From NCBI GenBank assembly GCA_000002445.1, contig CH464491.1:3968001-4032000 (forward strand): DNA of 64,000 bases, in the 5' to 3' direction. Of this stretch, positions 1,862-64,000 are shown piece after piece (the first letter of the stretch is position 1; each line of letters opens with the position of its first letter). The notes beneath the pieces are model-generated. The model did no database searches. It worked only from the letters and a program-made list of their open reading frames with translations, and had not been told where the DNA came from. A program made the position numbers and the translations under genes. The DNA comes from Trypanosoma brucei. Lineage: Eukaryota.

Positions 1862-3118
1862 AGCTTCTCTTTTTTTTTCTTTTTTTTCTTTTTTTTTGTT
1901 TTATGTGTGTTGCTATTACCGTTTCCGCTAGAGGTTGGTTGGAGTCGGTGCCACTGATCTTGGTCTTGATATTTATTTATTTATTTATTCGTTTTCTGTG
2001 CGATCACTTGTACCGCTTACTTTTTTTTTTTTTGATGTTGTTGTTTTTGTTTAAGTTTCTCCACGTGTATTTTAACCAGCACCTCACTGTAAGCACCGGT
2101 TGGAATGCCCCAAGCTAAAAAGTGTCAACTCCTCAAGCCTCGCTAGTGCGATAAATAAACTTATTTTTTTTTCTTTTCCTTTGTTTCTTCCGTATGTTTG
2201 TGTTGTGTCTTACCTTTAATGAACTGATTTGATTTTTTGTTTTCTTGTGAAGTTCATAAAATGGAAGAAAGTACGAAAGAAATATTCCGAGAGGGACAAA
2301 AAAAGCAGAATGAAATCACTTTTTTTTTTAAAAAAAAAAGAAAGAAAAAAAAAGGATATAAAAGCGCAGGGTTTTGGACAAAGGGTAAAAGCACCAAGAA
2401 AGGAAGGTAATATGGGGAGAAATAAATACATTTCATGACGCTGCAAAGTATGACTACTACATACACAAAAAAGTTTTCGAAAGGAAAAGAAAAAAACAAA
2501 TGGGGGTAATGACGAATTATTTCTTTTTTGTTTGTTCGTTTGTTTGTTTGTCTCATGACTGCTTCCTTTTTTGTTTTCTTCTTCTTTACTGTTGTTGTTG
2601 TCGTTTACAGCTCTGTCTTCTTTGATCAAAAATGAAAAAAAAAATAATAATAAGTGCTCATAAGCATCTGCTAGAGGTGTATAAGAAAAAACGTACAAAA
2701 TATATGTATATATATATATATATATTTAAATACTTTTTATATTTCGGAAACGCGATGCGCGCGTAAATAGAAGGAAAAAAAGTAAAAAAAAGACGAGGAG
2801 AGAACGGGAGGGAGAAAAAAAAAACAAGATCGAAACTAGAAAAAAGTAAGGCTGAAACGAAAGGATTTGACGCTGATTTGTTTCATATAAATCACGTACC
2901 TGTTTCTGATTTATAGTTGTGGGAATTCGTTTTGTGAGGCATAATTTGAAGAAGGTCAAAGCGAGCGGGTGAGTGAGTGGAGAGGTGTGTGTGTGTGTGA
3001 GGGGGGAGAAGAGATATATAAAAAAAGAAAAAAAGAAAAAAACACCCCCACACCTGGTTTGTATCACAACAACGTTAAGTTTTTTTTAAAAAAAAAGAAA
3101 AAAATGAAAAAGGGGGCA

Positions 3119-3166
3119 TATATATATATATATATACATACATACATACATACATACACATACACT
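3119..3166. repeat. Compound microsatellite, (TA)n followed by (TACA)n
   Basis: Read directly: atatatatatatatatatacatacatacatacatacatacacatacac. It sits in a 3.3-kb low-complexity intergenic region (1862-5153). Confidence 0.95.
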
Positions 3167-5153
3167 TATATATTTATATATTTATATAAATATGAAGTTG
3201 TTTCATCACTTTCCCCACACATACACACACTCCTCTCCCCCTCCCCCCTCTTCCCATCATTCGTCATTGCTCCCTCAGCAACAGAGGGTCAATCGCTTTA
3301 AGAAAGAAAAACAAAACAAAACAAAAGCACCATCAAAAAAAAAACGAAGAAGCAAATTATGCAAGTCACAAGCGTTCGAAAAAAACAAACGTAAATATGA
3401 ACTTGCGTCTTACTTCTTGTCGCTGGCACCACCGTTACGTCTTCTTTCTTTTTTTTTCTTCCGTTTTTTTTCTTTCCTCTCTCTCATCGATTGTCGAATC
3501 ACCCGCCCCGGAAACGAGGAAAACATACACAACAACAACAATAATAATTATTATTATTATTATTAAATAATAGGGGGAAAAAAGAGGGAAAAAGCTAACA
3601 ACGAAAAACAAAACGCACGCACTCGCAAGACACATCTATGCAAGTGACAATGAAATTTCTATTAGAGATGAACTGAAAAACATCTATCCAATTGTTCAAT
3701 CACTCTTCTTCTTTTTCTTCTTCTTTTCCTTTCCTCTTATATGCAGACAAGTACATAACACATACGCGTACATAAATGTAAATACATTCATAGATCATAA
3801 CCGTTTGCTCATACGATCAGAAATATATATTTGTCTTCATGTTAGTATTTGTTTATTTACGTGTAAAGATATATATATATATATAACAGAAACAAGAAAA
3901 CAATAAGTAAATAGATATAAACCAAAATGGTCACAACCTCACTTACACCTTCTCATCCATTTATGCTTTCGCGATATTTTAGCAACGATGTTGTGATTTG
4001 TCATGTTTCATTTATCTCACGTTTTGCAGATATTCATTTATTTATATGTTATTTTGCATTTTGCTTCTCTCTTTTTTTTTCTTTTTCCTTTTTTATTTTT
4101 CTTTTTTCTCTTGCCTCCCCTTTTCTCTCCATTTTCTCTTATTATCTCTAAATTTCTTCAACATCCACAGGCATTTCTCCACCACCTCTCTTGTCTCCAC
4201 CCCTTCCTTACAATCAACTGACTGTGGAGTGCAGCAAACTTTAGAAGGGAAAAAAACAATAATAATAATAACACGCCACATCATTCCTCCTTTCAATTCT
4301 TTTTTCATCGTTTTCTCTTTCTTTTCTTTTCTTTTCTTTATCTCAGTCATTCATTTTATTTATACTTTAACATAGTTTTCTCTGATTATTTTTTATTTGG
4401 TATTATTTTGTATATTTACACATTTTATTCATATATCCACTGGCGGCCGACATTTATGTTGCTTTTGTTGAGATTCGAGACTGTTCTTTTTCCTTTGTAA
4501 TAATACAAATTTTGTGACAAAAAAATCAGTGTTACTGTTGTTGTTGTTCCTATTATTATTATAATATATATTATTATATATATACAAAACAATTGGTTTA
4601 CGAAACATATACACATATATTTTTAAAAAAAAGAAATAAAATATATGGTAGATGAAGAAAAAAAATTAACTAAAAAGAAGTGAATGACTGAGCGTATGAA
4701 GGATATGATGCCCAACGGAAGGAAAAATGGTAGAGGGAAATAAGGAAAAGGAATGAGGATACGAAGAGAACAAAAAAAATTCATAAGTCATACAATCCCT
4801 GAAATATATATATATATTTTTATTTATTTACACAACTTGCAATGCGTACCGATGAATAATAACAATAACAATATAATCGAAAAAGATTACCTACAGGTGG
4901 AAAATAACACCCCCCCCCCTCCCCCTTCACTCACCAGGACACCTCTGCTGATGAAACTGCTTGAGAGATTTTGTGATAAGTGTGAGCAAGCTCAAAAAAA
5001 AAAAAATGAACACAGTGAAAGAAAGGGATATGCAACTAATTTATTGGGGGAGGGGGGTTCCGGGAGACATGCCGTCACATCCACACAAAATGCATAGGAA
5101 ACGCTTCCACCCCACACCTCACACCCATCCCTTTGTGTATGCTGGCATTACAA

Positions 5154-44149: not shown

Positions 44150-44545
44150 TTATTCGGCCACCTCGTCTTCCATCGCATCCTCCCAAGCGTGCACCTCAGA
44201 ATACCATTGTAAGGAATGATACGCGATGTACACCGACCCAATGCCGTATCGCACGTAATCTGGGAACAAACGTTGCAGATAAATGAGCCGCAGATTAGGC
44301 CCAAATGTGAACCCCAACGCCGCCGCGATACCAACCTTCGCTCCCCAAATTGGTTGCTGCATGACTGTGGAAAGTCCTGTCGAGAAGCCTAACGCGTATA
44401 TAAGAATGAGGTTGTTAAAAACATTGGACGAACGCAGCGTTCTGCCCTGGACACTGTTAAACATTATCGACGCTAAACAGATACCCATGAGGGGGGTGTT
44501 AACAGCGTAGGGGTTCATCATTTCACGACTCGAACTACCCCCCAT
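44150..44545 (-). CDS. Small membrane protein (131 aa) with Gly-zipper-like helices and a possible N-myristoylation signal. Membership of the Tim17/OEP16-like family is speculative.
   Basis: ATG at 44543-44545. The N-terminus is 'MGGSSS…'. There are three hydrophobic helices with small-residue motifs (GICLASIM…LILIYALGFSTGLSTV…AKVGIAAALGFTFG) and an acidic C-terminus. Confidence 0.45.
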   Translation of the reverse strand: MGGSSSREMMNPYAVNTPLMGICLASIMFNSVQGRTLRSSNVFNNLILIYALGFSTGLSTVMQQPIWGAKVGIAAALGFTFGPNLRLIYLQRLFPDYVRYGIGSVYIAYHSLQWYSEVHAWEDAMEDEVAE

Positions 44546-49280: not shown

Positions 49281-51330
49281 GGGATGTAGATACTTTTGAT
49301 CTTAAGAAATCTTTTTACAAGAAAAGGGAAAGACTCTCCCGTTCTGTCCCTTTGATCGTTCCCCTGGACGTTCACAAGGTCGATGTTTATTTCGTTAAAG
49401 ATAACCAATTGTTTCTTTCTTATTTCCTTCTTACTCCTTAATTTCTCTTCCGGTTTACAGCTGTCTCCCTTTGTTCACACCTTACGTTTGCAATCGTACT
49501 CGTGGCTATACCACGCGGTAAACCCAAGTGGAGAAAAAGTGTTTCAGAGAAAATTTGATTGGTGTGCTGTTGGGGGGGGGGGAGAGTTGCGCACCAATTC
49601 ATATTGAAGCGAAAACGGTAGCAGAAGTAACAGCAACAATTTGTTTTAAAAGGGAAGCAATGCCCCAGAAGCATTACCCAAAATAAACTACTGTGTAAAT
49701 ACAGGGGGTTCATAATTATGCAGTCGATAAATAAACTAAGAGGACGTGGAATCGCCGTAGAAACCAAACCAACACACGAAAAAAAAAAGAGACTGTGTAA
49801 AAACACGAACTAATAACAAAAGCAGGACAGGCAGTAGAAAATATGCTGTTATTTGTTTCATAGTAGCATATATTACTTCCATGCTAAAACAAAAAGATGG
49901 TTGATGTGTCCGTGGTCGTAGACAAACCCCCGGCGTAGCAACTTGCAAAACGGAAAAAACAGGCAACATGGTAAGTGTTTCACGCACGTTAGAACACAGT
50001 TTACATAGAGGGAGAGCAGGCCACATGCAATTAATTTCGAAATAAAAAAAACTGTTATCCGAGAAAAATTGGTGGGAGAGTAGCTATCCTGTGAGTTGCA
50101 CCAGTTCAGTTACAGTCAAAGGATATGTCACACTGCGCCTGTAAGTTGTTCAAAATGCTCTGACCGCTCCATCTGAGGGTCAGATAAACCACTTACGAAG
50201 AGCCCATCTTTGCTTTGTCGTCTACGTGGGTTCAGTCATACAACAGCATATGGTACGTCCGTGACCCACCGCGGAAAACGAAAACTGTCACTGCACAGAA
50301 CATCGCATAACTTCGGCAACCGAGGTCACTGGAAGTGCGTATGATAGTGGAACAAGTATAGATACAAGTGTGCACCGGGTAACGTCACTTGTGGTGCCGA
50401 AACCGAGACGACTGTATTCGGTAGCAACATCATTTCTCGCATCACTGCGTGATCAAGAATGCACAACAGCCATTTTATTGTATAAATGCGAGCGTACACA
50501 CAACAGTACGAACTTTTTTAAAATTTAAGCTGCAGAGTTTAGTACACAGAATGTGAGGAGGCTAATCCCTTGGGACCGTTACCTAACAAGATTCCAGAAA
50601 ATTTAACTTTCTAGAAACGATTGTACAATGTAGTCTCCACCCTTAACCCTGTAGCAGTAAAAGCTGCAGGTACTCGAGAGGTAGGTCACTATTCTGTCAA
50701 GCTGTCCCCTGCTCGAACCATAATAGAAGATCGGGTGTGCAAATGCGTGAGAGAAGTAAATTTCTTCATCCGCTGGCCTGGGGCGAGGGTCTCGGAAGCC
50801 GTGACAGCATACGACAAACGTATGACACATTGTAGCGCCCTTCTTTATCACCTGTATCCATGATAATCCCGTTTAGTCATACTGTATAAACTAGTCCAGC
50901 AAAATTACGCAATCACACCTTCAATAACCTACAGCGGTACTCTGCAGTGGGCAGGCTCCGGCGTTAGCGTGGGTTCCAACGGCATGAACGAGTGATAGAA
51001 ACCCTCCCTCGCTACGTAGAAAAGAACACAGTTTTGCGCATGCAAACTACACACAATATTCAACAACGAGAAAAAAACTAACACTTGGTCGCGGCGCAAT
51101 GTCCTTTGGAAAAGCTGTATATATGGCAAAAGCAGGGTCACAAATTTTTGAAAGCAAGGTCGTCCCATTTGTTGCAGGTTGTAATTTTGGCATTATCACA
51201 TGAGAAGATAGTGCGTGAAGAGGCGACACTTCTAGTAGAGCCCGGTTACCCAAGAAAAAAACAAGGAACACAAAATAAGAGAGTACCTTCTTAGCCAAAG
51301 AAGTGGAAGAAACGACATAAAATACATATA

Positions 51331-51723
51331 TCACGATTCTTTCGTTCTTGTTCCTTTTTCCTTCCTAAGCAACTCGTTGTTGACCATAACATAAGGATGT
51401 CCACATATTTTTTTGCTGTGCCGCGTATTGTTTCTAAGAAGGTACTGGGATAGCCAAGATATAGGGTGCGTATTTCCAGTAGGTCCGTAGCGATGGGAAA
51501 CCTCGTCGGGTTCCAAAGCGCACTGCTGCTGACGCTTTACTAATTCGTACAGGGCTGGAACGAGTGTTGGGAAGACGTTTTCACGCAAATATGTGACATT
51601 TTCTCCCTCACACGATGCATTGACAGCTGTCTCGACATCCTCATATCCGCACCAAATCTGCTCTTCAATCAGCCGAATCATCATAGCCTCACTAAGAGCC
51701 TGTGTATCCGCCGATACCTCCAT
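51331..51723 (-). CDS. Small Dpy-30-motif (RIIα-like dimerisation/docking) protein
   Basis: The ORF-track start is TTG. The ATG is at 51721-51723 (MEVSADTQALSEAMMIRLIEEQ…). 'VTYLRENVFPTLVPALYELVKRQQQ' fits the Dpy-30 motif (YLxxxVxPxLxxGLxxLxK). Confidence 0.5.
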   Translation of the reverse strand: MEVSADTQALSEAMMIRLIEEQIWCGYEDVETAVNASCEGENVTYLRENVFPTLVPALYELVKRQQQCALEPDEVSHRYGPTGNTHPISWLSQYLLRNNTRHSKKICGHPYVMVNNELLRKEKGTRTKES

Positions 51724-54700
51724 TGTAGTTACGTCTATCAACCCCTAAAAAGAATCAAAAAGTAAGAGGTTGTTATGTTTAAGAATTGATGTGCGTGCAA
51801 GTAGGGGCAAACATCCATAGGTACATTGTGTTTAAGCGGTCGCATCACAGCTCAGCTTCAAAAAAAACGATCCCATTATTATAAATAACTGGCAGTTAAG
51901 CACCCCCAGGTTATGTGTATATGTGTACGTGCGTTTGTGCATATGAATGTGCGTACTTATATAGTGGGTAAATTGGAAACGCAAGGAAACGTGTTGACAA
52001 AAAATTAAACGCATCAGCAACGACGAAGAGAAAAATCCAAATAAACAACAGGGAAGTCTTTTGTAAACCACGCACGTTCCTCCACGTACTATGCGACAGA
52101 AATTTTTATTTATCGATACACCAAGACAGTATTTGCTAAGGAATTGCCACGCAGGTTGATGTGAAGGATAAGATATATCCATTTATTAACTAAATGGACG
52201 AAAGCGGATGGAAGTGTCAAACAATCAAGGAAAAATTAAATGCGCCCAGAAAATCAACGATTTTCACTGGTCGTACGAATAGCAACTTCCATTATACCTC
52301 AATAAAGAAAAAATAGCCCTGGGAAAGTGAGGTAGCTAGAACTGTTACTACTTGCATAGTACGCCTTTTCAAGCAAGCAACTTCAGGCGGTATACCTACC
52401 AACTTATCAAGTCACCTGAGATCAGTGGGGAAATCAAGATATCTAGTAACAGAAAACATGTCCACAATGCAGAGAGAGTGAATTAGATCCACAACATGAA
52501 GAAAAGGATGATTGAGTCAGGAAAAAAAAATCACGGCAAACGTGAGTTTAGTTTTGACATAGCGGTGGAGCGGTACATCAATCCCGAAAAAATACGAAGC
52601 GCAACTCCGTGTGTCCGATGATCAAACGACACTTCTTCACCACGGCACAAATCATAGGAAGGGCACCAAACGACGATGCTACAAAACCTTCAGACCATTG
52701 CATAAGTTCATTACCCCATAGCTCACCGTCGGAAACAAGTTTGCAGAGATATGAGTTACTCAGCCCTGCTTACCGGTAATTTCCGTGATGTCAAAAACGT
52801 CGAAGGTGAAAGAAGGACGAAAACCCCACCCTCGGCAGCTGTCGCTTCCCATTACACGCACCTTGCAGATAATCTTCCAGTTTGTCGCAAACAGGGCAAC
52901 AGCTGCGCCAACAGCACACAAATACAAAGCCACGAAACCGCCTCCTCCTCTGCCTCCCCCCCCCCCAAATATCACACACAATACACTCAAAGGTGTGTGG
53001 TAACGTCAAAATTCTGACGTCTTTTTCGGTGATGCAGCATGCCAAGCCTGAGACTCCTGATGAAATACTGAAGAAGAAAATTAACATTAGCAGGTCAAAT
53101 TTTCGTAGGTTTAATCTCGAGTTTTCCTACAAACTTCAGGAAACCAAGGTTCATAAAGATCATTAGCAACATTTGTTACATAAGCCAAACAGATGCATTA
53201 CTTCAAATAACGAGGACATATACAACCAAAGGCACTGTGCACCGATGGGTGGCACCGTCGTGCAACGACACAAACGCTTTCTGCCGGATGACATATGTCG
53301 GGAAATGCATTTTATCTACTGAAGAGGGAGATAGTGCAACCCTCTTTGATGAGACTGGCCCCTTCGTATATACGCCCTTCCTCCTTACCACCTGAAACGG
53401 TACGACATCGTAACTGTTGCGTCGTTATTATTCCACTCTCATACGTCGACTTCTTCTCATCACAAAACTGGCGCCACGGAACCATTACACAGGGGTGGTA
53501 CAACCCGTGAGCAACAAATAACATACGCAACATCAGTTTTAGAGGGACGTTACAAATTATTTTGGATCATTTCCGGGAAGAGTGAATTTTGACTCAACAA
53601 ACTAAGCGTTGCGCAGCCAATAAATGAGAAATAAGACCCCCTGGCCAACTCGCAGACAAGTGCTCACCACACAAAAGGTTGGTTGTGCAGGGGGGAACGT
53701 GTGAAGACATGAAAATAACGTGGTGACGTCAATACTGGAGTTGTGGTGTCACATATGACTTCCGCTTCACCATATACTTTGCCAACCCACATATCGCTCT
53801 TATACCTAATGGAAAGTAGTGGAGCGCCCAAGAAATACGAAAACTCGCCAACAAGCAACTTCCAAGACATTACAATCACTGTCTACATGTGCTCGAACGG
53901 TCTTCAAACGAACCTCTTCTTGAGGTAGATAGGCTACATTCAGACATAAGCGCATGTTCTTCGAGTAATGAAAGGATGCAAGTTGTATGACAGCACGACT
54001 CTTGTGACCACCAAAGGGTGGCACCCGTTCAAAAGTAAAAAAAAGATTGACGCGTCCACCCAAGATATTTGTCCGCTGCATTATTGCATGGAGACAGGAA
54101 ACGGCAATCGGTTCTTTCGACCGCGCTAGGTGAAAATGCCAACTTCCCGAAGTCTCAGCTCTATCGCCTTTAGTGGAGCCGTTTTCCCCTTCATGCGCTT
54201 TACGACCACAAAGGGCACACAGATCTGTATACCGAATAGCAAGTTCTACCACGTTTGAATAAAGGTGCACAGATGATTGTACAGAGGGGAATGTCATTGC
54301 ACAACCTTTCTACCCTTTAAGCCCCTTGTCCCTGCTGCCCCTCAGCACCCAGTTAATTGACCGTTCAGCCAGGTTCATCCTATTTTTCCAATGGAAACAA
54401 CACTGCCGGATGCAAAAGAGTCAAAACAGGGGAGCAGAAACCAGATTCCTCCCCCTCCTTCCCCCTGAGAATTAATAGCGATACATGAGCTCCCATGTTG
54501 CCCCTAAAGGCATACAAGAAACTAGGCCAAAGGTGAACCACATGGGAAGCGGCCGGAGTAGCAGAAAAACAAATCGATTCTGACCACTTCAACACAGAGC
54601 CAGGGCTCCGCACCTCCCCAAGGTAAGGCGAGACAACTACTCACAACCACCTCACCATAATTATCCTGTGGAGGAAAGACCGAGGTCTTGGTCCGCCGCG

Positions 54701-55361
54701 GGCGGCGCAGCACATCCACAGAGGGACAAATATCGCAGCTAGCGGCTTCGCGGGAGCGGAGTCACCAACAACAACACCAACGGCACCGAATTACCACCTA
54801 CACACCCCTGGAAGAACGCCACTGGGCTCGTGGCGGGGACGGCGCCTAACCATCCTCTCGCCCACTGTTTCCATCACTTTTCTTCAGGGCCTCTCCCTCC
54901 CATTCTCATTTCTCTTGCCCTTAGGCGTCGGCGGCCCTTCGTTTGCGACCATTGTGGGATGCGCCTGTGTTTCCAAACCCCACATGGGGCTAAGCAAACG
55001 CGACGCAAGTGGGGGACGGGCGCGGCACTCGGCGGCACCGTTCCACTGCGGGGGGAGAGACCATGCAGACTTTCTCGAACCCGCATAAATCGTACGATCG
55101 GGCCCTTTACAAAACATTGTTCACGACGAGAACGTTCCAACCAGCAGCGGTTCAGTAAGTGCGACAACGTTTCCCCCCAGTCGTTGCGCTGGCTTATGCC
55201 TTCGAGTGTCGCATGGAAGTGCTGGCCCCCCTCTTATCAAGTGTACGGCTCATCCGATTGCACGCTGTAGCGCGCGCATTGAGCACACCGCCGCCGCGGC
55301 GCGCGTCTGACTAGCAAGTGAAGTCCACCGGCGCCAACTTAATGCACTAGAACCCCCTGGC

Positions 55362-55900
55362 GATGCCGGCCACCTCAACGTGGTGCCAGGGTCCAGTCTC
55401 CCGTATCATCGGGGGAAGCCAAGAGCCAGCAGCGTTCCTTTCATGGGGAACACTGCTGTGCTCCGGCTACAGCGTCATACAGCACGGGGATCAGAAGCGT
55501 CTTGCTGGGACACCGTTTTTCATTTGTCGGTCCCTGGGCACGTGACAGCGTTGCCATCGACGGTATCCGGAGTTTTCCCTATGACGTTGTGTACGTTTGG
55601 AAAACATCCAGTGACATTCTCGCACCCTTTTCTATTGTCAGGGATTCTGTTGGGTTACTGCGGGCCGATGGGGCTGCATTTGCCCGCTTCACGAATATCA
55701 GTCTGTTGCCGTTGCATGTTGTCGAAGCGACCACATATTTCTTTCCAAACAATACAGATTTCTCGGTTCATAATCCGTGGCATCCACCAGGCGGTGATTG
55801 TACACTGTTTCCACTGAATCGTTGTGCAACCTGCCTGTCCCACACTTCCATTTTCATATCTTTGTAATCTTCCGCACGTATGAGTCTTATTCAAGCGTGG
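55362..55900 (+). mobile_element. 5' end of an ingi/RIME/DIRE-family non-LTR retroposon (Pr77-like hallmark). The element's downstream extent is undetermined and it is probably degenerate.
   Basis: 'CCCTGGCGATGCCGGCCACCTCAACGTGGTGCCAGGGTCCAGTCTCCCGTATCATCGGGGGAAGCCAAGAGCCAGCAGCG' at 55362-55441 matches the conserved ~77-nt 5' signature shared by ingi/RIME, DIRE, L1Tc/NARTc and SIDER elements; this is recalled from memory and not verified. The downstream sequence has only short, frame-shifted ORFs, and I found no poly(A) tail or target-site duplication. Confidence 0.45.
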
Positions 55901-57597
55901 GAGAGGGGTTTACAGCCGCATCGGAGGTTTGCGCAACGTCGACAGCCCTCATGGACATACGCGATGGCGGTAAGATCCGACTAAGGGCTGCTAGCAATTG
56001 TTGAAGCCGTATTGCTGTGCGGCAACTTTGTTGAAGTTCCAAATGCTGTGTTGTAAGCCGAACCTTAACGGTTCTTTCCACCGATCTTCATAGGCACCTC
56101 GTGAGCGTCAGTAGTTCGTATGAGTTTTCATATTTCATTTTCTTACAAGCTGCTAGGGCATGGATGTTCAGACGACACATGATTCTGTTTTGATGTTTCG
56201 ATTCTCTTCTACGGACTCATATCAAACAGTTAAAGCAAGAGCGTAAATTATTTGTTTCTGGGATGTTACTGTGTTTCGCTGCCCAGATAAGGGGAGGCAG
56301 CCGCCGAGACACGTGGTAGCTGATGCGGTGATATCATGAGTTGAAAAAGTGTTATCGTTCGGAGCTATATCATTTTTGTGTTTATAAACACTAACTATTG
56401 TGAGTAGCTATGCCGCTTGAGAGACGAAGGGCATAGGTCAGGGAAGTGCCTCACCCGTTACCGGCCACTGGCAGAAACTTCGTCCGCCATAGCCAGCGGA
56501 GTGCTGTGAAACATTGGAGTATATATACATATACATATGCTGGTGATGCATCACCCATATGGGTCTTAAACCTTTAGTCGTCACAAAAGTGCACACCACC
56601 TCTTCAATGCCACAGGATCCAGCGGTTGCTTCCGCATAGCACTCAGCCCTTCCTCAATTTAGTGAGATCAAGCTCTTAGTAGCGTTTATCTACAGGGTTA
56701 AGAAAGTTCGTGTTCCCAGTGTTGTATTGTACTGTGGTGTTCCCCTACTCACTCGTGGGGCAGCTCCAGCAGGTTGAAATAAGATCGTGGGGTAGAAGTC
56801 AATCGTTTGCCCAACCCACATAAACTCCGCCATTTCTGCCCTTTTTTTCCTTGTACGTTCCCTCGGTCTCCCTTCCGAATTCACCCCACTTAAGTTTTGT
56901 TCATACATGAAAAAGAGGTATCCGACACTGGAGGTTCAGGTTATCCATTGTGTTTTTCCGCTAAATTACACAGGATAAGATAGGGTGATGGTACATATTT
57001 GCTGAAGTGTAGTGATATCCATGCGTACACCCCGCGCCATCTTTACAGGGGATGCATCATGTTCGGGCTTCGCCGCTCAGTGCGGGCACTTGGTGCCATG
57101 GCCAGTTTTTGGTTGACTCGAAAATGGTTGTTGATGCAGCGCCGCATTAAAGTTTCTCCTTTGGTATGTGGTTGGATGGTGCGGCATCAGGAAAGCGCGT
57201 TGGCAAGAGCACCGGCACCAATGAGTTACGCAAGTCAGGTTACGCGCATTGGCTTATTTACCCCTAGCATTAAAGTGTGGCGTGACAGAGTTACTAGTGA
57301 AAGCGGCAATTTGCATCCTATCTTGTAGATGGGCGATGGCCCGCGTATCTTAGACGTGTGAAATGACTTCTATTCATGGCTCTGCTAGAAGGTCTTCCAT
57401 AATGAGTATACGAGCATGCCGCTACCTTCTTACACATGTAAGTTGTCCTGTGATGTGTTGGTAAAAGGTAGAGCTTATGGACCTTGATTATGCAGTTGTT
57501 ATACTAGTTCTATTCACGGCACAGAAGGTTGAAAATGCATCAACGAGCGTTTTATAGAATATACTGGGATTACTTTCCTCTAGAACGTGGTGCAACT

Positions 57598-58899
57598 CTA
57601 TTGATGTTCCAATGCCAGAACTTTTATAGACCCCCCTTTACGTGAATGGACAGAGGTGTTCTTTGTAGTGGGAAATCGTCGGATAATGCGTTCCCAGGGA
57701 TCGAAGAGTGCATAGTTGTATTCCAGAAAGATGCAACCCTCAAGTATTCCGTGTTTTGTGTAATTCCGTAGCCGTATTATAGTGGTGTTTTCTAGGTGAG
57801 AAACGCTGCCTGCTTTTGGCTTCTTCTGAACACCGTAAAGTACAGGAAAGCGTGCCAAGGCGCTCAGGCAGCCGGCGCCGAGAGGGTGTAACGAAGCAAA
57901 TACTGTGGAAGTGAGTGGTAAAGCTGTGCCACATTGATGTGGAAGGAGAGGGGGAAATACTGTGCGGCGCCCTTCCTTGTTTCGATGGATGCAAATTTTC
58001 AGAACCCGCAACCATTGATACTCGCAAAGTGCGCATTTACACAAAGGCGAAGAGTGACAACACTTTGACTAGTGATTGAAACGTTACAAAAAAGGTGCCC
58101 CCAACATGGGTATGAAAGATATTTAGAAACTCTAAGAAGGTCAGTGCCAGCCACGCCATCGTGATGCCAGGGGTTGCTGCAAGAAGGGGAAGGCCAAGCA
58201 TTTACACGCATCCCTGCTTGTATGAATTGCGGCAGCAGGCGGCAGTCCAGCACACACGACACAACCCTCCTGAAAAAAATTACGGATGGAGGCGCAAAGA
58301 AGTGGAACCTGGTAACGGAAAGTCCCTAGTGTCCGGAGGCAATTTTTCAGAAAGGCTGCCCTGGCACGACACCAAAAAATAGTAGCACATGATTGTGAGG
58401 GAAAGAAAGGCCACAACGAACCAATAGCCTAGTACCAGGAGATATTCGCTTATTTATTCTGATACCCAAAGCTTGTAAGTGCGATGAAATAAATGGAGCC
58501 AATGGGCACAGTGGAACATGAAGGAGGCCAATCCGAGGAGCCGGAGCAACCCCTTCTGAAACTTTTCAAACTTCCAGATTAAAGCAAGAAAAATCCCATC
58601 GTGAAGAACAACTACGTGGCCGCAGAAGAGAGCCTCGGAATCCCTTACTACAGTTTTGTGGCTCGCCACCAACTCTCTGAGCCCAAACAAAATGTTGCGC
58701 TGCTAAAAGGGGCCGAAAGGATTACCAAATCCTGAAATGAGCACGCAGGGAAACGAGAGCGCACCCTACCTACACAGTTTTCATGCAGAGAAAAAGTTCT
58801 AGGGAACCGCTCGATCCTTCTGTAAGCAAGCGAATGAAAATCAAGCGGCAATGGGGCACGTTCCGGTTGAACGGACGGGGAAGGAAAAGTGCTGTGCAC
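57598..58899 (-). pseudogene. Possible frameshifted pseudogene or degenerate retroelement ORF. It is a chain of abutting minus-strand ORFs in alternating frames.
   Basis: Six consecutive minus-strand ORFs (57598-58044, 57740-58036, 57999-58262, 58141-58416, 58454-58690, 58648-58899) tile 1.3 kb in shifting frames. The sequence is high-complexity with no homopolymers. No motif recognised. Confidence 0.2.
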
Positions 58900-61800
58900 T
58901 ATGCATTCGCAAGTGTGTGAATCTTCTTGCCTTCATCTTGAGCATTCACTCGCGGGCCCCCTATGGGAGGCACATTTGTGCAGAGCCTCTTAGTGAAATC
59001 CAAGGTACCTGATTTATGAGGCGCATCCCAACCACTGGAGCACCATCCCCCCACAAAACTCAGTCGTTGGTGTATTGGGTGATTGTGAAAATGAAGTCAA
59101 CCTCTTATGCCTACGAAATGCTCTCCTGTATCCCTCGATGTCAGGTAGTATCCCACAGCCATTTCATATGCAACTTTATCAACGCATCCCAGTCCCGCCT
59201 CTTTGGGCGTGTGCACTCTCTCCATCCACCGGAAGGTGAGGCTGAGAACCACTAGGCGATGACACCCTAGCACACCCTTGCTTGGGTGATTCCAAAGTAG
59301 GAGGTTCTAGGCGTTTCATTCTCGGGAATTCCACTCTGACGACGCTACTGCTCCGAGTTCTATGAATATTTTTCCCTTCTGACTTTACTGTTTATTGAAC
59401 GTGCTCTAACACTCCCCCTTGGCGGCTTCAACGCGAGTGCCGAAAGCGTTTGGTACCTTTACATTATCAATTTCCCTTCACATAGCAGTGAGATGCAACA
59501 AATCACGAGTACGTACAACACCCGACCGACACTCTGTTGTTCACCATGGTGACCCACGGTGCAGGTTAAACGCACCACGCACTGCCGTACCCTTGAAGTG
59601 ACAGCCTCCGCACCTTTTACTTCTTAGAAGATACCACAAACAGAATTGCCATCCTCCTCCAATTTCCAACCTAGTCCCTCTTTTTCTAACCTCGGACTCA
59701 GCGTTAAAGGGAGAAATAACATTGGGTGCAAAGGGAAAACTTGTACACGCGTTGATTCAGATGCAAGCCCATCCAACTGACTAATGAAAACTAGGGCTTG
59801 AGGGGGGGGGGCACATTTTTATGCAATACACGACAAGCTAATTCCACAGAAGCTGAAGAATTACGGCAAAAAGTGGCATCAACCCCAGCACACTATGCGG
59901 TTAACCTGCAAAATGGAGGCTGTGCCTATTATCACAGTGGAATAAAATCTCTGGTTGGACGTGATTCTGCTTCTTTGCCCCCCTTTTTGGCCATATGCAC
60001 GCCCTCTCCCGTTTTTTATTCTACACTGCGAATATTTACTTCCAACAATGTAGAGCATCAGCAAGCAAAACGCACATATTATCACCAAGCATTGTGACCC
60101 TTCACCCATGCTGTTACTTTCCTCGTCAACGCCATAATGACCCATATGCACTCTTTTTTTTTCTGTCTCAAGAAATTCGTTCGCTTCACCTAGTTAAGCA
60201 TAAATTTCACGACAAAATTTCATCGCCACCACCACCTCCTCCCTATTGAAGTATTGCACTTCTTTATTGACCCGGATACTGCATGTTACGGTGGATGAAC
60301 CCCCGCTTTTGTTTGGGATTTTCGTGAAACGAAGGAGTACAGCTCCACCCTCGCTTCCTTCCCCCGTGCACTTCGATGATGCAACATCCTTGCGTGTTCC
60401 AACAGATAATGCAAACTGGTATTCCACATTCATTTGACAGCGACCAAAAAGAAATCGACAGCGCGTTAAATCACCATTAACCCGATCTGAATCCGATTCC
60501 GAGACTCCCGATTCGCAACTTCCCGTTACGTTATGATGCCACGGCAACAACCGTAAGAAGGCCTCCTCCCGTACCGGCATCCGTTTAAGGTCCTCTGAAC
60601 GAGATCGCTTCTTAAGCCTAAAATAACGGTTGTTAAATTCATTTAGCAATCTTCCTAAGCTCACACTGTAAACGGTAATATTTGTCTTTAACGCCTTCAT
60701 ATATTCCCTCACCCGTCGTCTCCCCTTTATCTTCAGCTCACTCGTGGGATCAATTACTCCCTTAATGTGCTGTTCCAACCAATAGGAATGCTACTCAAAG
60801 AGAGTGATATTGGCTAATAGTTGCCTCTTTATCTGTGCCTTGCGATAGAAGACTTCGTAACCGAAAACCCCCGGATTGTTCATATCTATCTGTGTAGCCC
60901 ATCCTGTATTTTTTTCCGTTGCTCCACAACTGTAAAATATGTGTAACACGAAATAACAAGCATATACCCTTTTCATTCCAGGAATTATCTGCCTCTTCCG
61001 CTTGATTTCGGTGTTACACGTCCAAACCTACTTTGTCCCACCCACCCCCTACGCACACACTGAATAAGTAAATAACCTAATCAATTGACGTCAAGGCTTA
61101 AACCCCCCCTAAAACTGGCGAAGGCGCGAAACCAAGGGGAGAACGAGGTCACATATGTGTTGGGTGGAAAGTAATAACTGGCGCGGGAGCTGTTACATTA
61201 TTTGACATGCGTATGTTTGTTTGGTAGGGCACCGGAAAGAACTGCAGCCCCAGGGCCAAGAACTTTATCCGTGGAATTGGTGATAAGGGCATCCTGTTTG
61301 TTGAAGCATTGCTTTTCTAGCCGTTGCAACTCCCATCATAACCCGCACAAATTGCCCTAATATCCTGAATGTAATTCTACCTACCAAATATCGGAACGTT
61401 GGGGGTGCTTTCGCTAGGCGGGTGAGAAAAAATACTTCACACAATGTAGTAGCACCCGCATCAGATGAATGCTTGATCCTGCTTAATCTTTGCTGTGCGC
61501 ACCAAACATCCAAACTCCACTAGCATCGATATTCTTCCCGCGACAAACGAGGTTCACGTTGTCATCAGAGTCAAATAACTGTGGGAGAGGAAGCCGCCAC
61601 CGCAATCGGACCCATCATGCCGCGCAAATTCTACTCAATAAGAGGCATGTGAGGGGGCGGTGGCGACGTGACGGGTAAAAGTTACGACGAAAAGAGTGTT
61701 ATGTGTGTCTTTGAAAGTGTGGCGAGCGTTGAAGCGACAGCTCTTTAAGTTGTTCCCCAAGTTTGTTTGAGGGGACTGTCGGTGCGGGAATGAAAGCAGA

Positions 61801-61970
61801 CAGTTCACGCGGAGAATGGTAAAGACGAAAAGTTGTAATCTTCTTTTAGAAGCACTACACAAATGAAAGCTAACGTGTGCAGGTGGTGACGCATGCGCTT
61901 GGATACTCAGTTCTCCGGGAGACGACGCTTTGCGTACACGAGAATACGCAAGAGCCTGTGAGTGGAAGGG

Positions 61971-64000
61971 TTAGAACCAGCTATTTTTTTGCTTCTGATT
62001 TAACTTCCGGGCCAATGCCTCAAACGTGGTCGCTTCCTGCGCCAACTCACGCGATTTACTTTCAATTTGGGAAATTTTTTCACCTCGCTCATGCACCTTG
62101 ACTTCGTTCTCCCTCATCATCTGCAGCGCCTCGGTCACACTGACGTTCTCCCGCGCGGCGACAGCCTTGAGCTCGCTGTACCGGCTTCCTCTCCTTTCCT
62201 CGCTTCCCTCCCTTTCAGATCTCCTTTGGGACAGGACCGCTCCGTCTCTCCCTCTCTCAACAATGGAATCGGGCCGAGGGTGCTGTGGTGCAGCCCCCTC
62301 CATCTTTTTCACCAAGACATTTGTTTCAATCTTCGTAGCTGCCTCCTCCCAGGACTGTGTGGTCAACCGTTTCAGCAGCCCCTGCTCTTGCTTTACTGCC
62401 GGCGGGGGTGGCAAAAACTGCAAGTAAGACCGGAAGGTTGGTGGTGCGGGTACGTGGCGGATGCCTTCCAAAGGTTCCGCAGTCAAACGAAGCTGGTCAC
62501 TAACATTGCTTTCAGCTGAAACGATAAGATGTCCAAGTGCTCCCGACACTCCTACCACGTAGATGTGAAGCCCACTTCCTTCTATGTAGTGTGTGTGGAG
62601 GCGGAGGTCGTTTTCATCACAAAGACAGAGCATCGTATGCTCCGCCAGTCGCTGACCACTCTCGAGGTCTAATACGTTGAACCATCGCCATCCATTTGCG
62701 TCCCGACTCATCACGACCACCACGCGGAGAGACATGCAAACCCCCACATGCTCAACGGAGCGTCCCCGCCCCACCACAGGGGGTTGCATGCGGTTCGATG
62801 GAGCTTCTCCCGACAAAAGCCGCTCAGCAAGATATAAGTGAACCTTGCGTCCATTCCAAAGAACAACCGTTGTGTCAGGCGGGGAGTCTTCACCCAGTAC
62901 GTTTCTCAGGCGGCTTCTTTCCTCTTCCTGTTTTTCCTGCTCGTCTTCTGCATGAAGATCACACTGCAAGGCATCATAGGGCCATCCGGGATTCACTTCC
63001 ACCGCGACAATTCGACTACCTGGTGTGACAACTCCTCTCAAGGTGTACTCGCCGTCTGCACTCACAACCACTTCCCCACCAGAGACAACAACACTCAGGC
63101 GAAGGTCTTTTGAATTAGACGAGGGGAGCAATGTCCACTCCGTATCGGTCCCACCAACTCTCCCGTACCATAAACCTCCGGGGGGTTCTGCACACCACCG
63201 TAGCTCAACAGCAAAAATGACGCGGCCGAATACATCGCGGAAACTGACGGTGCCTCGAAAATCAGAATTTTTCTCGGCACTGGGGTCGCTTTTACCATCT
63301 GAAACATCGGCATGGGGAGCTCTAACCACAAGGCTGGCGGCCCCTGCCGATACCGAAAACCGTGGAGTTGAACTGCACAACATGACTTTGTCGTAGCTCC
63401 ACCTACCATCATCCTCCCGGTGATAGCCGAGCATCTGCATGTCGGACATGTTCCAGATTATTAGCCCTCGATCGTTTGAGAGAGTACAAAACAAGGCCAA
63501 AAAGCTGTTCTTACCCTCACAAACAGGGCCAGTACTGCCGGCTGAACAACTTCGACCCATCCAAACTGTGTCAAAAGATGTTACAGATGCGCCCGCTGGA
63601 AATAGGCCTCCCGGATAATGAACCATGGCGGGCGCATTCCCTTCCCCAGTGACCCCGCCGCTTAGGTCAACGATGACCAAGTTCCCATTACGCAGTTGCA
63701 GAAGGATGCTCATCCCACCACGCACCAACTGGAAGGCTTGCGGTGTAAGTTCCCGCTGTTCAATTCGGCAGTCTGCCAACTTTGCGGTCCGCGCGATAAT
63801 CTCAGCTTCTCCATCTTGTCCATCGTCCCCGACACTAGCTCCGCCAAATATGAGTTGCTCTTTTGAGAGGGTCATAATATGTTCCACATGTGGTGGTGAG
63901 AATCGCACGGCATTTACTGATACCCCCATTTCGTCAGCCAAAACGCGTAGTATAAACTCAGTCCTGCAAGGATGCTTTGGAAGGGCTTCCTCGAGTATGA
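61971..64000 (-). CDS. Tomosyn/Lgl/Sro7-family protein with a C-terminal R-SNARE-like motif. It is partial: the 5' end lies beyond the window.
   Basis: The frame stays open from 63941 to the window edge, and the ORF-track 'M' at 63941 is a TTG. The body is rich in β-strand and WD-like segments. The C-terminus 'RENVSVTEALQMMRENEVKVHERGEKISQIESKSRELAQEATTFEALARKLNQKQKNSWF' has a heptad R-SNARE pattern with a central Arg (zero-layer candidate) and ends like tomosyn (…KDKKWYQF). Confidence 0.6.
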   Translation of the reverse strand, partial: ILEEALPKHPCRTEFILRVLADEMGVSVNAVRFSPPHVEHIMTLSKEQLIFGGASVGDDGQDGEAEIIARTAKLADCRIEQRELTPQAFQLVRGGMSILLQLRNGNLVIVDLSGGVTGEGNAPAMVHYPGGLFPAGASVTSFDTVWMGRSCSAGSTGPVCEGKNSFLALFCTLSNDRGLIIWNMSDMQMLGYHREDDGRWSYDKVMLCSSTPRFSVSAGAASLVVRAPHADVSDGKSDPSAEKNSDFRGTVSFRDVFGRVIFAVELRWCAEPPGGLWYGRVGGTDTEWTLLPSSNSKDLRLSVVVSGGEVVVSADGEYTLRGVVTPGSRIVAVEVNPGWPYDALQCDLHAEDEQEKQEEERSRLRNVLGEDSPPDTTVVLWNGRKVHLYLAERLLSGEAPSNRMQPPVVGRGRSVEHVGVCMSLRVVVVMSRDANGWRWFNVLDLESGQRLAEHTMLCLCDENDLRLHTHYIEGSGLHIYVVGVSGALGHLIVSAESNVSDQLRLTAEPLEGIRHVPAPPTFRSYLQFLPPPPAVKQEQGLLKRLTTQSWEEAATKIETNVLVKKMEGAAPQHPRPDSIVERGRDGAVLSQRRSEREGSEERRGSRYSELKAVAARENVSVTEALQMMRENEVKVHERGEKISQIESKSRELAQEATTFEALARKLNQKQKNSWF

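What the first reader, a model, noticed from the sequence alone, without database searches (positions are those of the whole stretch)
51724..61970. 10-kb ORF-poor block of high-complexity sequence interrupting an otherwise dense unidirectional gene array
Elsewhere in the window, genes are 0.3-3 kb apart and the intergenic DNA is low-complexity (homopolymers and microsatellites). Between the Dpy-30 gene start and the tomosyn-like gene stop there is 10.2 kb with no ORF longer than 195 aa on either strand, very few homopolymers, and ORFs that tile in shifting frames. This texture suggests decayed coding sequence (a retroelement, and in T. brucei often also an RHS pseudogene) and not UTRs. Such blocks within a same-strand array also commonly mark head-to-tail transcription-unit boundaries (a termination or re-initiation site carrying histone-variant and base-J marks).
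Basis: partly seen in the sequence, partly recalled or inferred. Interest (0 to 1): 0.55.

Follow-up and report, generated by a model that had tools for sequence, protein, structure and literature searches.

The report
Retroposon relic at trypanosome transcription-unit boundary
The 10-kb gene-free block is non-coding DNA specific to African trypanosomes on Trypanosoma brucei chromosome 11; it contains a decayed ingi-type retroposon and sits at a head-to-tail boundary between two transcription units that was already published, so it is real but already known.

Summary
Between the Dpy-30 ATG (51723) and the tomosyn-like stop codon (61971) lie 10.2 kb with no ORF over 198 aa. Homopolymers are 5 times rarer than in other intergenic DNA, and ORFs of at least 100 aa are 3 times more common than in shuffled sequence.

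The window is T. brucei brucei TREU927 chromosome 11, bases 3,968,001-4,032,000.

About 2.9 kb (55011-57889, minus strand) is a degenerate ingi-related element (DIRE). It keeps the 5' signature and frameshifted relics of the endonuclease and reverse transcriptase. Inside it, in the opposite orientation, sits a younger ingi/RIME 5' head of about 235 nt (94% identical, 3'-truncated).

I found no RHS relic, no Pfam domain in any frame, and no remnant of the Peptidase_S28 gene that fills this interval in T. theileri.

The two annotated "T. brucei spp.-specific" ORFs (Tb11.01.7030 and Tb11.01.7040) evolve like non-coding DNA.

Kolev et al. 2010 (Table S14) end one Pol II unit at Tb11.01.7040 and start the next, typed "Internal", at Tb11.01.7010. 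That places a mapped head-to-tail boundary in this block.

The feature is already known, so interest is low.

The parts
51331..51723 (-). Dpy-30-motif protein CDS (130 aa). It is the lower flank of the block and the first conserved gene of the downstream transcription unit.
   Evidence: Pfam Dpy-30 hit and translation. Orthologues exist in T. equiperdum, T. vivax, T. theileri and T. rangeli. The gene matches Kolev's novel transcript Tb11.NT.191, which maps to window 51744-51171.
51860..54851 (-). Region upstream of Dpy-30 that appears in RNA-seq assemblies. It has no detectable homology to anything and contains the annotated ORF Tb11.01.7030. The strand shown follows the ORF-based orientation of the contigs; the RNA strand itself was not established.
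   Evidence: Logan contigs L016 (54633 to 51860) and L017 (54851 to 52946) map here. The run series is RNA-seq, because L015 begins with the spliced-leader tail. Divergence between TREU927 and DAL972 is 15.5 per kb over 51724-55010, above ordinary intergenic DNA.
53806..54297 (-). Tb11.01.7030 (EAN80484), a 163-aa 'T. brucei spp.-specific' hypothetical ORF that is probably not protein-coding.
   Evidence: Exact match and source name. No Pfam hit. Divergence is 12.2 per kb, like non-coding DNA and unlike CDS at about 5 per kb. Codon-usage score is at background level.
54300..55351 (.). GC-rich island (56.6% GC). Its upper part overlaps the 3' end of the DIRE.
   Evidence: Composition profiles.
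55011..55228 (-). 3' piece of the DIRE, aligned to ingi nt 4631-4798 (C-terminal region of the ingi ORF).
   Evidence: nhmmer E 9e-6, and 1.7e-6 against the block alone. No significant similarity to ingi below 55011.
55352..55588 (+). Young ingi/RIME 5' head: the first 225-235 nt, including the 79-bp signature (Pr77 region). It is 3'-truncated, antisense to the gene array and embedded in the DIRE.
   Evidence: 94.4% identity over 216 nt to a RIME in T. b. gambiense, and 92-94% to an ingi in T. b. equiperdum. Similarity ends abruptly near RIME position 222. No target-site duplication was found. The T. equiperdum contig L001 breaks 30 nt into it.
55610..55963 (-). Middle piece of the DIRE, aligned to ingi nt 2897-3240 (start of the RNase H region).
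   Evidence: nhmmer E 6e-6. ingi domain positions come.
55957..57889 (-). 5' part of the DIRE (ingi nt 1-1876). It carries a degenerate 79-bp signature at 57889 and frameshifted relics of the AP-endonuclease and the N-terminal part of the reverse transcriptase.
   Evidence: nhmmer E 1.6e-52. tblastn places ingi aa 136-211, 227-317, 427-553 and 585-674 at 57559-55920, with 30-37% identity (E 5e-9 and 6e-8) in three frames. The head is 63% identical to RIME (E 2e-13; alignment).
57890..59830 (.). Unassigned high-complexity DNA (48.6% GC). It has no detectable homology, and none of the transcript contigs I retrieved covers it.
   Evidence: No Pfam, ingi or RHS hits. Composition.
59831..61491 (-). 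Transcribed region downstream of the mapped tomosyn-like poly(A) site. It contains Tb11.01.7040, the last annotated ORF of the upstream transcription unit.
   Evidence: Four RNA-seq contigs from four runs (L003-L006) all end at 59831-59847. Kolev Table S14 lists Tb11.01.7040 as the last ORF of its unit.
60194..60700 (-). Tb11.01.7040 (EAN80485), 168 aa here and 273 aa in DAL972. It is an orphan ORF with gene-like codon usage, but its substitutions look neutral.
   Evidence: Exact match and names. The only homologue is the same locus in close relatives. Against the RNA-seq strain there are 2 synonymous and 8 non-synonymous differences, one of them a stop/Lys polymorphism. The codon log-likelihood score is 16 bits per 100 codons, at the low end of real genes.
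61492..61970 (-). Mapped 3' UTR of the tomosyn-like mRNA (Tb11.01.7050).
   Evidence: Kolev Table S3 gives the transcript as 4033735-4029492 and the CDS end as 4029971. The window offset is +3,968,000.
61971..64000 (-). C-terminal 675 codons of the tomosyn-like large R-SNARE (Tb11.01.7050). It is the upper flank of the block.
   Evidence: Pfam Synaptobrevin hit. 36% identity to the T. theileri orthologue. The L. major orthologue LmjF32.2160 is described in PMC1626469.

Best explanation
The block is the spacer between two head-to-tail RNA polymerase II polycistronic transcription units on T. brucei TREU927 chromosome 11. It corresponds to Tb927_11_01_v4 positions 4,019,724-4,029,970.

The upstream unit ends after the tomosyn-like gene Tb11.01.7050 and the orphan ORF Tb11.01.7040. 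The downstream unit starts somewhere in the block and runs through the unannotated Dpy-30 gene and Kap123 (Tb11.01.7010).

The DNA itself is non-coding and specific to this lineage:
- An old, degenerate ingi-related retroposon (DIRE) lies in the same orientation as the genes. It has two internal deletions.
- A later ingi or RIME insertion sits inside it in the opposite orientation. Only its first ~235 nt survive. Inference: a single deletion removed the 3' part of this insertion together with the neighbouring DIRE segment (ingi nt 3240 to about 4600).
- The remaining roughly 7 kb is orphan sequence that drifts at the neutral rate. It contains two ORFs that annotation pipelines called 'T. brucei spp.-specific proteins'.

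Shown here: the anatomy, the retroposon identities, the lack of any other coding ancestry, the neutral divergence, the synteny contrast with T. theileri and T. vivax, and the transcript contigs.

Taken from the literature: that Pol II initiates internally here (5'-triphosphate RNA-seq, Kolev et al. 2010).

Inferred: the order of insertion and deletion events, and that the retroposon is a passenger in a permissive, gene-free boundary and not its cause.
For: Source. Ten of ten window proteins are exact TREU927 chromosome 11 products, EAN80463 to EAN80483.

Coordinates. The offset of +3,968,000 fits both the Tb11.01.7050 CDS end and the novel transcript Tb11.NT.191, which coincides with the Dpy-30 gene.

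Boundary. Kolev Table S14 lists 'Tb11.01.7840 to Tb11.01.7040, minus strand' and 'Tb11.01.7010 to Tb11.01.6260, minus strand, Internal'. The main text states that the Table S14 sites show 5'-triphosphate tag enrichment and coincide with the histone-variant sites of Siegel 2009.

DIRE. nhmmer E 1.6e-52, plus two more pieces, plus endonuclease and RT relics by tblastn. Its GC content is 49.4%, against a published TbDIRE mean of 48.7% (PMC2323293).

Head A. 94% identity over 216 nt, then an abrupt loss of similarity.

Nothing else. No Pfam domain in six frames at E<=1. No RHS. No Rfam family, tRNA or tandem repeat.

Neutral evolution. Divergence from DAL972 is 15.5-21.9 per kb in the block, against about 5 per kb in CDS and 9-14 per kb in intergenic DNA. 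Tb11.01.7040 shows 2 synonymous and 8 non-synonymous differences with a stop polymorphism.

Synteny. T. theileri has tomosyn-like, Peptidase_S28 and Dpy-30 within 3.7 kb. T. vivax has at least 10 kb upstream of Dpy-30 with no tomosyn-like gene, no S28, no ingi relic and no similarity to the T. brucei block.

Background. TSRs are described as broad 5-10 kb regions that often contain annotated hypothetical ORFs not joined to the neighbouring polycistrons (PMC9566855).
Against: The position of initiation and termination inside the block is not known from anything I could read. Table S14 only brackets it between Tb11.01.7040 and Tb11.01.7010, so it could lie in the 2-kb Dpy-30 to Kap123 spacer. 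That is unlikely, because Tb11.NT.191 (Dpy-30) is a processed minus-strand mRNA.

I had no access to histone-variant or base-J tracks.

RNA-seq contigs cover about half of the block. This is compatible with a boundary, since TSRs are transcribed, but it does not prove one.

About 7 kb has no assigned origin. Tb11.01.7040 has gene-like codon usage, so a decayed or young gene there is not excluded.

The single-deletion history of head A is only the most economical reading of the alignment coordinates.
Confidence: 0.78

Rival explanations
1. The block is just an oversized intergenic or UTR stretch inside one continuous transcription unit, inflated by a retroposon insertion. No initiation or termination happens there.
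For: RNA-seq contigs cover 59831-61970 and 51860-54851 on what appears to be the gene strand. No sequence motif specific to T. brucei Pol II promoters could be scanned for; the SPARC paper reports heterogeneous promoters. G/C runs and polypyrimidine tracts in the block are not distinctive.
Against: Kolev Table S14 splits the array exactly here and types the downstream unit 'Internal'. The gap is four times the largest other gap in the window. It also matches the 5-10 kb size quoted for TSRs.
Confidence: 0.12
2. Most of the block is decayed host coding sequence. Candidates are a pseudogenised Peptidase_S28 (the gene at this position in T. theileri) or other lost genes.
For: The block has coding-like texture and three times the expected number of 100-aa ORFs. 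On the minus strand, 61519 to 59882 stays in one frame with only 9 stops. The codon-usage score reaches 16 at 60000-60999. T. theileri has an S28 gene between the same flanking genes.
Against: tblastn of T. theileri S28 against the window gives no hit at E<=1. A Smith-Waterman alignment of the 756-codon frame against S28 scores 40, against 37.6 +/- 4.6 in shuffles. There is no PF05577 hit, nor any other Pfam hit, in six frames. tblastx against the T. theileri and T. vivax loci finds only the flanking genes. The 198-aa ORF has no real homologue among 1.84 billion representative proteins.
Confidence: 0.07
3. Tb11.01.7030 and Tb11.01.7040 are genuine protein-coding genes specific to T. brucei, so the block is a sparse gene region and not gene-free.
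For: Both are annotated in TREU927 and DAL972, and Tb11.01.7040 also in T. equiperdum. Both are covered by RNA-seq contigs. Tb11.01.7040 has gene-like codon usage and is 273 aa long in DAL972 and in the RNA-seq strain, longer than any ORF in 100 shuffles of the block (largest 257).
Against: Tb11.01.7040 is cut to 168 aa by a stop in TREU927 and T. equiperdum. Of its 10 differences from the RNA-seq strain, 8 are non-synonymous. Tb11.01.7030 diverges at 12.2 per kb, against about 5 per kb for CDS, and scores at background for codon usage. Neither has a Pfam domain or a homologue outside Trypanozoon.
Confidence: 0.08
4. The block contains an RHS (retrotransposon hot spot) pseudogene, as often seen next to ingi/RIME in T. 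brucei.
For: A protein search with the head-A region returned two RHS (pseudo)gene products.
Against: Those matches cover only the RIME/ingi sequence inserted into the RHS genes, not the RHS sequence itself. tblastn with RHS N- and C-terminal ORFs gives nothing below E 0.7. RHS_N, RHSP and DUF7578 are absent from all six frames.
Confidence: 0.01

Closest known systems
TbDIRE (degenerate ingi/L1Tc-related elements of T. brucei; Bringaud and colleagues)
   Same: It has the 79-bp signature at the 5' end. It shows degenerate, frameshifted similarity to the ingi endonuclease, RT and C-terminal regions. It has no intact ORF. Its GC content is 49.4%, against a published family mean of 48.7%. It lies at a boundary between transcription units, a class of site that is comparatively rich in retroposons.
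   Different: It is shortened to about 2.9 kb by two internal deletions (ingi nt 1876-2897 and 3240-4631). No A-rich tail or target-site duplication is recognisable. It carries a younger ingi/RIME head in antisense orientation. I could not check whether this copy is in the published DIRE annotation, although the authors state that all copies were annotated.
ingi / RIME retroposons of T. brucei
   Same: Head A is 92-94% identical to the first 215-230 nt shared by ingi and RIME. From the alignment, about 77 of the 79 signature positions match. This is the Pr77 region, reported as an internal Pol II-dependent promoter in L1Tc (PMC1874656).
   Different: It is 3'-truncated after about 225 nt, whereas non-LTR retroposons are normally 5'-truncated. 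It has neither the RIME 3' half nor the ingi ORF, and no poly(A) or target-site duplication. It is a fragment, not an element.
Internal (unidirectional, head-to-tail) Pol II transcription start and termination regions of T. brucei (Siegel 2009; Kolev 2010; Staneva 2022)
   Same: It is a gene-free interval of about 10 kb in a same-strand array. It is listed as the start of an 'Internal' unit in Kolev Table S14. It contains orphan hypothetical ORFs, as described for TSRs.
   Different: Many head-to-tail termination regions coincide with Pol I or Pol III genes. This one has no tRNA, snRNA or rRNA gene. It holds retroposon relics instead.
GC-rich strand-switch domains made of degenerate retroelements (T. 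cruzi chromosome 3 centromere; T. brucei centromeric regions with DIRE/ingi plus AT-rich repeats; Obado 2007)
   Same: Degenerate ingi-family elements lie between transcription units, next to a local GC-rich island.
   Different: There is no strand switch here. There is also no AT-rich tandem array, which is the defining feature of T. brucei centromeric regions (one search found no tandem repeats). Nothing suggests centromere function.

Membership tests
DIRE (degenerate ingi-related element) | 79-bp retroposon signature at the 5' end | tested here: met
   Window 57889 to 57686 (minus strand) aligns to RIME/ingi nt 1-194 at 63% identity, E 2e-13. Alignment shown.
DIRE (degenerate ingi-related element) | Degenerate similarity to the ingi/L1Tc ORF (endonuclease, RT and further domains), broken by frameshifts and stops | tested here: met
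   nhmmer E 1.6e-52 over ingi nt 5-1876, plus pieces at nt 2897-3240 and 4631-4798. tblastn gives 30-37% identity over ingi aa 136-674 in three frames. Domain map.
DIRE (degenerate ingi-related element) | A-rich 3' end and target-site duplication | tested here: inconclusive
   No significant similarity to ingi below 55011, so the 3' end cannot be placed. No A-rich tail was recognised.
ingi / RIME (intact element) | First ~250 nt shared by ingi and RIME at high identity | tested here: met
   55352-55567 is 94.4% identical to a RIME and 92-94% identical to an ingi.
ingi / RIME (intact element) | 3' half (RIME) or 4.7-kb ORF body (ingi), ending in poly(A) | tested here: not met
   Similarity stops at about nt 222-230. 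The only plus-strand ingi similarity in the block is this 5' head, and the plus-strand frames have no Pfam hit.
ingi / RIME (intact element) | Target-site duplication of about 12 bp flanking the element | tested here: not met
   The 14 nt upstream of 55354 have no second copy near the block, even allowing 3 mismatches.
RHS (retrotransposon hot spot) pseudogene | RHS_N / RHSP / DUF7578 protein similarity | tested here: not met
   Six-frame Pfam scans are negative at E<=1. tblastn with RHS ORFs from L007 is negative.
Internal Pol II transcription-unit boundary (sTSR/sTTR) | Published 5'-triphosphate RNA mapping splits the same-strand array at this point | tested here: met
   This was a literature look-up, not a computation. 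Kolev 2010 Table S14 lists units '...to Tb11.01.7040' and 'Tb11.01.7010 to..., Internal'. Window-to-chromosome mapping was checked with two independent features.
Internal Pol II transcription-unit boundary (sTSR/sTTR) | H2A.Z/H2B.V/H4K10ac enrichment (start) and H3.V/H4.V/base J enrichment (stop) | not testable with these tools
   No ChIP tracks are available. Kolev et al. state in general terms that their sites coincide with the Siegel 2009 marks.
Peptidase_S28 pseudogene (syntenic gene in T. theileri) | Residual similarity to PF05577 or to the T. theileri orthologue | tested here: not met
   tblastn gives no hit at E<=1. The Smith-Waterman score is no better than shuffles. Pfam is negative.

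The most novel reading that the evidence does not exclude
The internal Pol II start site of the unit beginning at Dpy-30/Kap123 may have been created by the retroposon insertions. The 5' heads of ingi-family elements carry Pr77, reported as an internal Pol II-dependent promoter in L1Tc (PMC1874656, abstract listed).

Here an old head points in the direction of the downstream unit and a nearly intact young head points the other way. That arrangement resembles the bidirectional initiation Kolev et al. saw at all start sites.

In T. theileri, which has no retroposon relic in the fetched locus, the same genes are packed 3.7 kb apart around a Peptidase_S28 gene. If this reading is right, retroposon heads would be a source of new transcription-unit boundaries in African trypanosomes.
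Probability: 0.08. Interest if true: 0.6.

Novelty: already known. Interest (0 to 1): 0.18.

Why it matters
It matters little beyond annotation. The locus is a worked example of a T. brucei head-to-tail transcription-unit boundary: lineage-specific, neutrally drifting DNA with a DIRE and an ingi/RIME fragment. The published transcription-unit table already places the boundary here, and the DIRE belongs to a family that has been surveyed genome-wide.

Three by-products are useful:
- Tb11.01.7030 and Tb11.01.7040 are probably not protein-coding.
- The conserved Dpy-30-motif gene is missing from the TREU927 and DAL972 GenBank protein sets.
- T. theileri carries an S28 peptidase gene at this position that has left no trace in T. 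brucei. This dates the boundary block to after the split from the T. theileri lineage, or implies complete turnover of the sequence since.

Tried and rejected
Searches that found nothing in the block:
- Rfam at gathering threshold over the whole window and at E<=1 over the block gave only a chance mir-297 match.
- No tRNA genes.
- No tandem repeats of note.
- No long direct or inverted repeats within the window. The only self-similarity in the block is the two retroposon heads.

Pfam:
- The ten longest ORFs gave nothing.
- All six frames with stops masked as X gave nothing at E<=1. Pfam therefore missed the DIRE, which only a real ingi query revealed.

It returned only the same locus plus two spurious repetitive proteins.

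Exact look-ups:
- Look-ups of the Kap123 protein and the 163-aa ORF in the contig index found nothing, although both are in the protein collection.

Ideas rejected:
- S28 relic hypothesis. A weak in-frame tblastn hit (E 3.2) prompted a shuffle test, which was negative.
- The non-matching first 26 nt of contig L002 looked like a possible spliced leader. They are not; they look like diverged genomic sequence, though this was not resolved.
- G/C homopolymer runs and polypyrimidine tracts as boundary markers were not discriminating.

Literature searches that failed:
- A modern Tb927.11 gene ID and the identity of the ERR79291xx runs.
- The supplements of PMC5399786 are not held.


Full report
**Source and flanks.** Ten of ten long ORFs in the window are exact matches to T. 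brucei brucei TREU927 chromosome 11 proteins, EAN80463 to EAN80483. They include Tb11.01.7000 (an RRM protein) and Tb11.01.7010, which is TbKap123 (PMC2742445). All genes lie on the minus strand. The lower flank of the block is a 130-aa Dpy-30-motif CDS at 51331-51723. The upper flank is the C-terminal 675 codons of a large R-SNARE with a synaptobrevin domain, whose stop codon is at 61971-61973. This is Tb11.01.7050, the orthologue of LmjF32.2160 (PMC1626469). Two published features fix the window at Tb927_11_01_v4 positions 3,968,001-4,032,000. The Tb11.01.7050 CDS end at 4,029,971 equals window 61971. The novel transcript Tb11.NT.191 at 4,019,744-4,019,171 equals window 51744-51171 and coincides with the Dpy-30 gene.

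The longest ORF in 51724-61970 is 194 aa from a start codon, or 198 aa stop-to-stop. The block has 47.5% GC, against 42.1% in the other intergenic DNA and 49.9% in coding sequence. Homopolymers of at least 8 nt occur at 0.59 per kb, against 2.99 per kb in intergenic DNA. It has no dinucleotide microsatellites. It holds 17 stop-to-stop ORFs of at least 100 aa, against 5.5 +/- 2.3 in shuffles. Other gaps between genes in the window are at most about 2.5 kb. The texture is therefore unlike ordinary T. brucei intergenic DNA.

**What can be assigned: a retroposon relic.** A protein search with plus-strand ORFs near 55.4 kb returned only two RHS (pseudo)gene products. Inspection showed that the match lay in a RIME/ingi inserted into those RHS genes, not in RHS itself. 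Window 55352-55567 on the plus strand is 94.4% identical to the first 216 nt of a RIME. I call this head A. Similarity stops abruptly at about nt 222-230, and no target-site duplication is present. A second, degenerate head (head B) lies on the minus strand from 57889 to 57686, at 63% identity and E 2e-13.

I then obtained a full 5.27-kb ingi from T. b. equiperdum (L012:10768-16040). Its Pfam domains are endonuclease at aa 121-326, RT at aa 594-785, then RNase H and a zinc finger. Using it as a query showed that head B begins a degenerate element on the minus strand:
- 57885 to 55984 aligns to ingi nt 5-1876 (E 1.6e-52).
- 55963 to 55610 aligns to ingi nt 2897-3240 (E 6e-6).
- 55203 to 55032 aligns to ingi nt 4631-4798 (E 9e-6).
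- tblastn places ingi aa 136-211, 227-317, 427-553 and 585-674 at 57559-55920, with 30-37% identity in three different frames.

This is a DIRE of about 2.9 kb with 49.4% GC; the published TbDIRE mean is 48.7% (PMC2323293). Head A sits antisense exactly where DIRE positions 3240-4631 are missing. The simplest history, which is inference, is that an ingi or RIME inserted into the DIRE and one later deletion removed its 3' part together with the adjacent DIRE segment. No further similarity to ingi exists below 55011 or above 57889.

**What is not there.** Six-frame Pfam scans of the whole block, with stops masked, gave no family at E<=1. This excludes recognisable RHS, RT or other domains. It also shows that Pfam alone would have missed the DIRE. 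tblastn with RHS ORFs was negative. Rfam, tRNA and tandem-repeat searches were negative.

**Synteny.** In T. theileri the gene order is tomosyn-like (1226 aa), Peptidase_S28 (626 aa, PF05577 at E 3e-52), Dpy-30, a 986-aa gene, then Kap123. The tomosyn-like and Dpy-30 genes are only 3.7 kb apart. Neither the S28 gene nor the 986-aa gene left a detectable trace in the T. brucei window. In T. vivax, Dpy-30 and Kap123 are adjacent as in T. brucei. The 10 kb upstream of Dpy-30 contains no tomosyn-like gene, no S28, no ingi relic and nothing similar to the T. brucei block. It consists of non-coding islands of 62-69% GC followed by 3 kb of 33% GC DNA. The enlarged gene-free interval is thus present in two salivarian species, but with unrelated sequence, and absent in T. 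theileri. Within Trypanozoon the structure is fixed. T. b. gambiense is colinear with window 58853 to 36055 at 98.9% identity and then runs into an assembly gap. A T. equiperdum contig matches window 55382 to 41346 at 99.6% and breaks 30 nt into head A.

**Constraint.** Divergence between TREU927 and DAL972:

| Region | Differences per kb |
|---|---|
| Three CDSs | about 5 |
| Ordinary intergenic DNA | 9-14 |
| Block, 51724-55010 | 15.5 |
| DIRE | 21.9 |
| Tb11.01.7030 ORF | 12.2 |

The public annotation places two "T. brucei spp.-specific" proteins in the block: Tb11.01.7030 (53806-54297, 163 aa) and Tb11.01.7040 (60194-60700, 168 aa; 273 aa in DAL972). Tb11.01.7040 is the only part of the block with gene-like codon usage, scoring 16 bits per 100 codons where real genes score 10-50. 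However, its differences from an RNA-seq strain are 2 synonymous and 8 non-synonymous, including a stop/Lys polymorphism. It has no homologue outside the locus in two very large protein searches. Both ORFs are best read as non-coding, with a decayed or very young gene not excluded for Tb11.01.7040.

**Transcripts.** The Logan contigs from runs ERR7929156-64 are RNA-seq assemblies. They are gene-sized, and L015 begins with the spliced-leader tail TTAGAACAGTTTCTGTACTATATTG joined to the Kap123 5' UTR. Four contigs from four runs extend from the tomosyn-like CDS down to 59831-59847. Two others cover 54851 or 54633 down to 52946 or 51860. None that I could retrieve covers 54852-59830, which includes the DIRE. 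My retrieval depended on exact ORF matches, so this absence carries little weight. Kolev et al. map the tomosyn-like mRNA 3' end at window 61492.

**Transcription-unit boundary.** Kolev et al. [quoted passage not shown] One runs from Tb11.01.7840 to Tb11.01.7040. The next, typed "Internal", runs from Tb11.01.7010 to Tb11.01.6260. The text says these sites show enrichment of 5'-triphosphate RNA tags, in both sense and antisense, and coincide with the histone-variant sites of Siegel et al. 2009. In window coordinates the boundary lies between 60194 and 49280. Because Dpy-30 is a processed minus-strand mRNA (Tb11.NT.191), initiation most likely lies within 51744-60194, that is, inside the block. 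Tb11.01.7030 belongs to neither unit. This fits the remark in PMC9566855 that hypothetical ORFs annotated inside TSRs are not joined to the neighbouring polycistrons, and that TSRs span 5-10 kb. I could not view chromatin tracks, so the exact positions of termination and initiation remain unknown.

**Verdict.** The features belong to well-described kinds (DIRE, ingi/RIME fragment, internal Pol II start region), and the boundary is already in the literature. I rate novelty as "already known" and interest as low. The most novel reading still open is that the Pr77-bearing retroposon heads created the internal start site. I give this a probability of about 0.08.

Noticed in passing
window 51331-51723 (-): The conserved Dpy-30-motif gene has orthologues in T. 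equiperdum, T. vivax, T. theileri and T. rangeli, but it has no protein entry from TREU927 or DAL972 in the collection. It is also not among the called genes of the DAL972 locus. It corresponds to Kolev's 'novel transcript' Tb11.NT.191.
   Followed up: partly
window 49281-51330; L011:10736-13696: T. theileri has a 986-aa gene with no Pfam domain between Dpy-30 and Kap123. T. brucei and T. vivax lack it and show no relic. In T. brucei this 2-kb spacer produces the novel transcript Tb11.NT.190 (window 51114-49643).
   Followed up: partly
L008:1-4490 vs L009:1-4484 (T. vivax): Two T. vivax contigs of the same assembly are 99.2% identical from 5.5 kb upstream of Dpy-30 onwards, but share nothing further upstream. 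This could be haplotype divergence, a duplication or a misassembly at the GC-rich islands.
   Followed up: no
L009:1-7000 (T. vivax): Non-coding islands of 62-69% GC carry long overlapping ORFs on both strands (up to 589 aa) with no Pfam hits. They are followed by 3 kb of 33% GC DNA immediately upstream of Dpy-30.
   Followed up: partly
window about 49505-49510 (-); L015:1-25: An RNA-seq contig carries the last 25 nt of the spliced leader joined to the Kap123 5' UTR. This places a trans-splice acceptor about 225-230 nt upstream of the Kap123 ATG (49280).
   Followed up: partly
L013:1-410 (T. b. gambiense chr 11, equivalent to window about 58854-59263): The DAL972 assembly has a run of Ns just beyond the DIRE. 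The reference assembly of that subspecies is therefore unresolved inside this block.
   Followed up: no
L002:1-26: The first 26 nt of the Dpy-30 transcript contig (AAAGATTCTTACTTGTTTAATTATTG) match neither the spliced leader nor the TREU927 sequence upstream of the gene. This may be a strain-specific indel region or an assembly artefact.
   Followed up: partly
window 44150-44545 (-): A conserved 131-aa gene (EAN80482) with no Pfam domain lies between the RRM gene and Kap123. It is 68% identical to its T. theileri and T. vivax counterparts.
   Followed up: no
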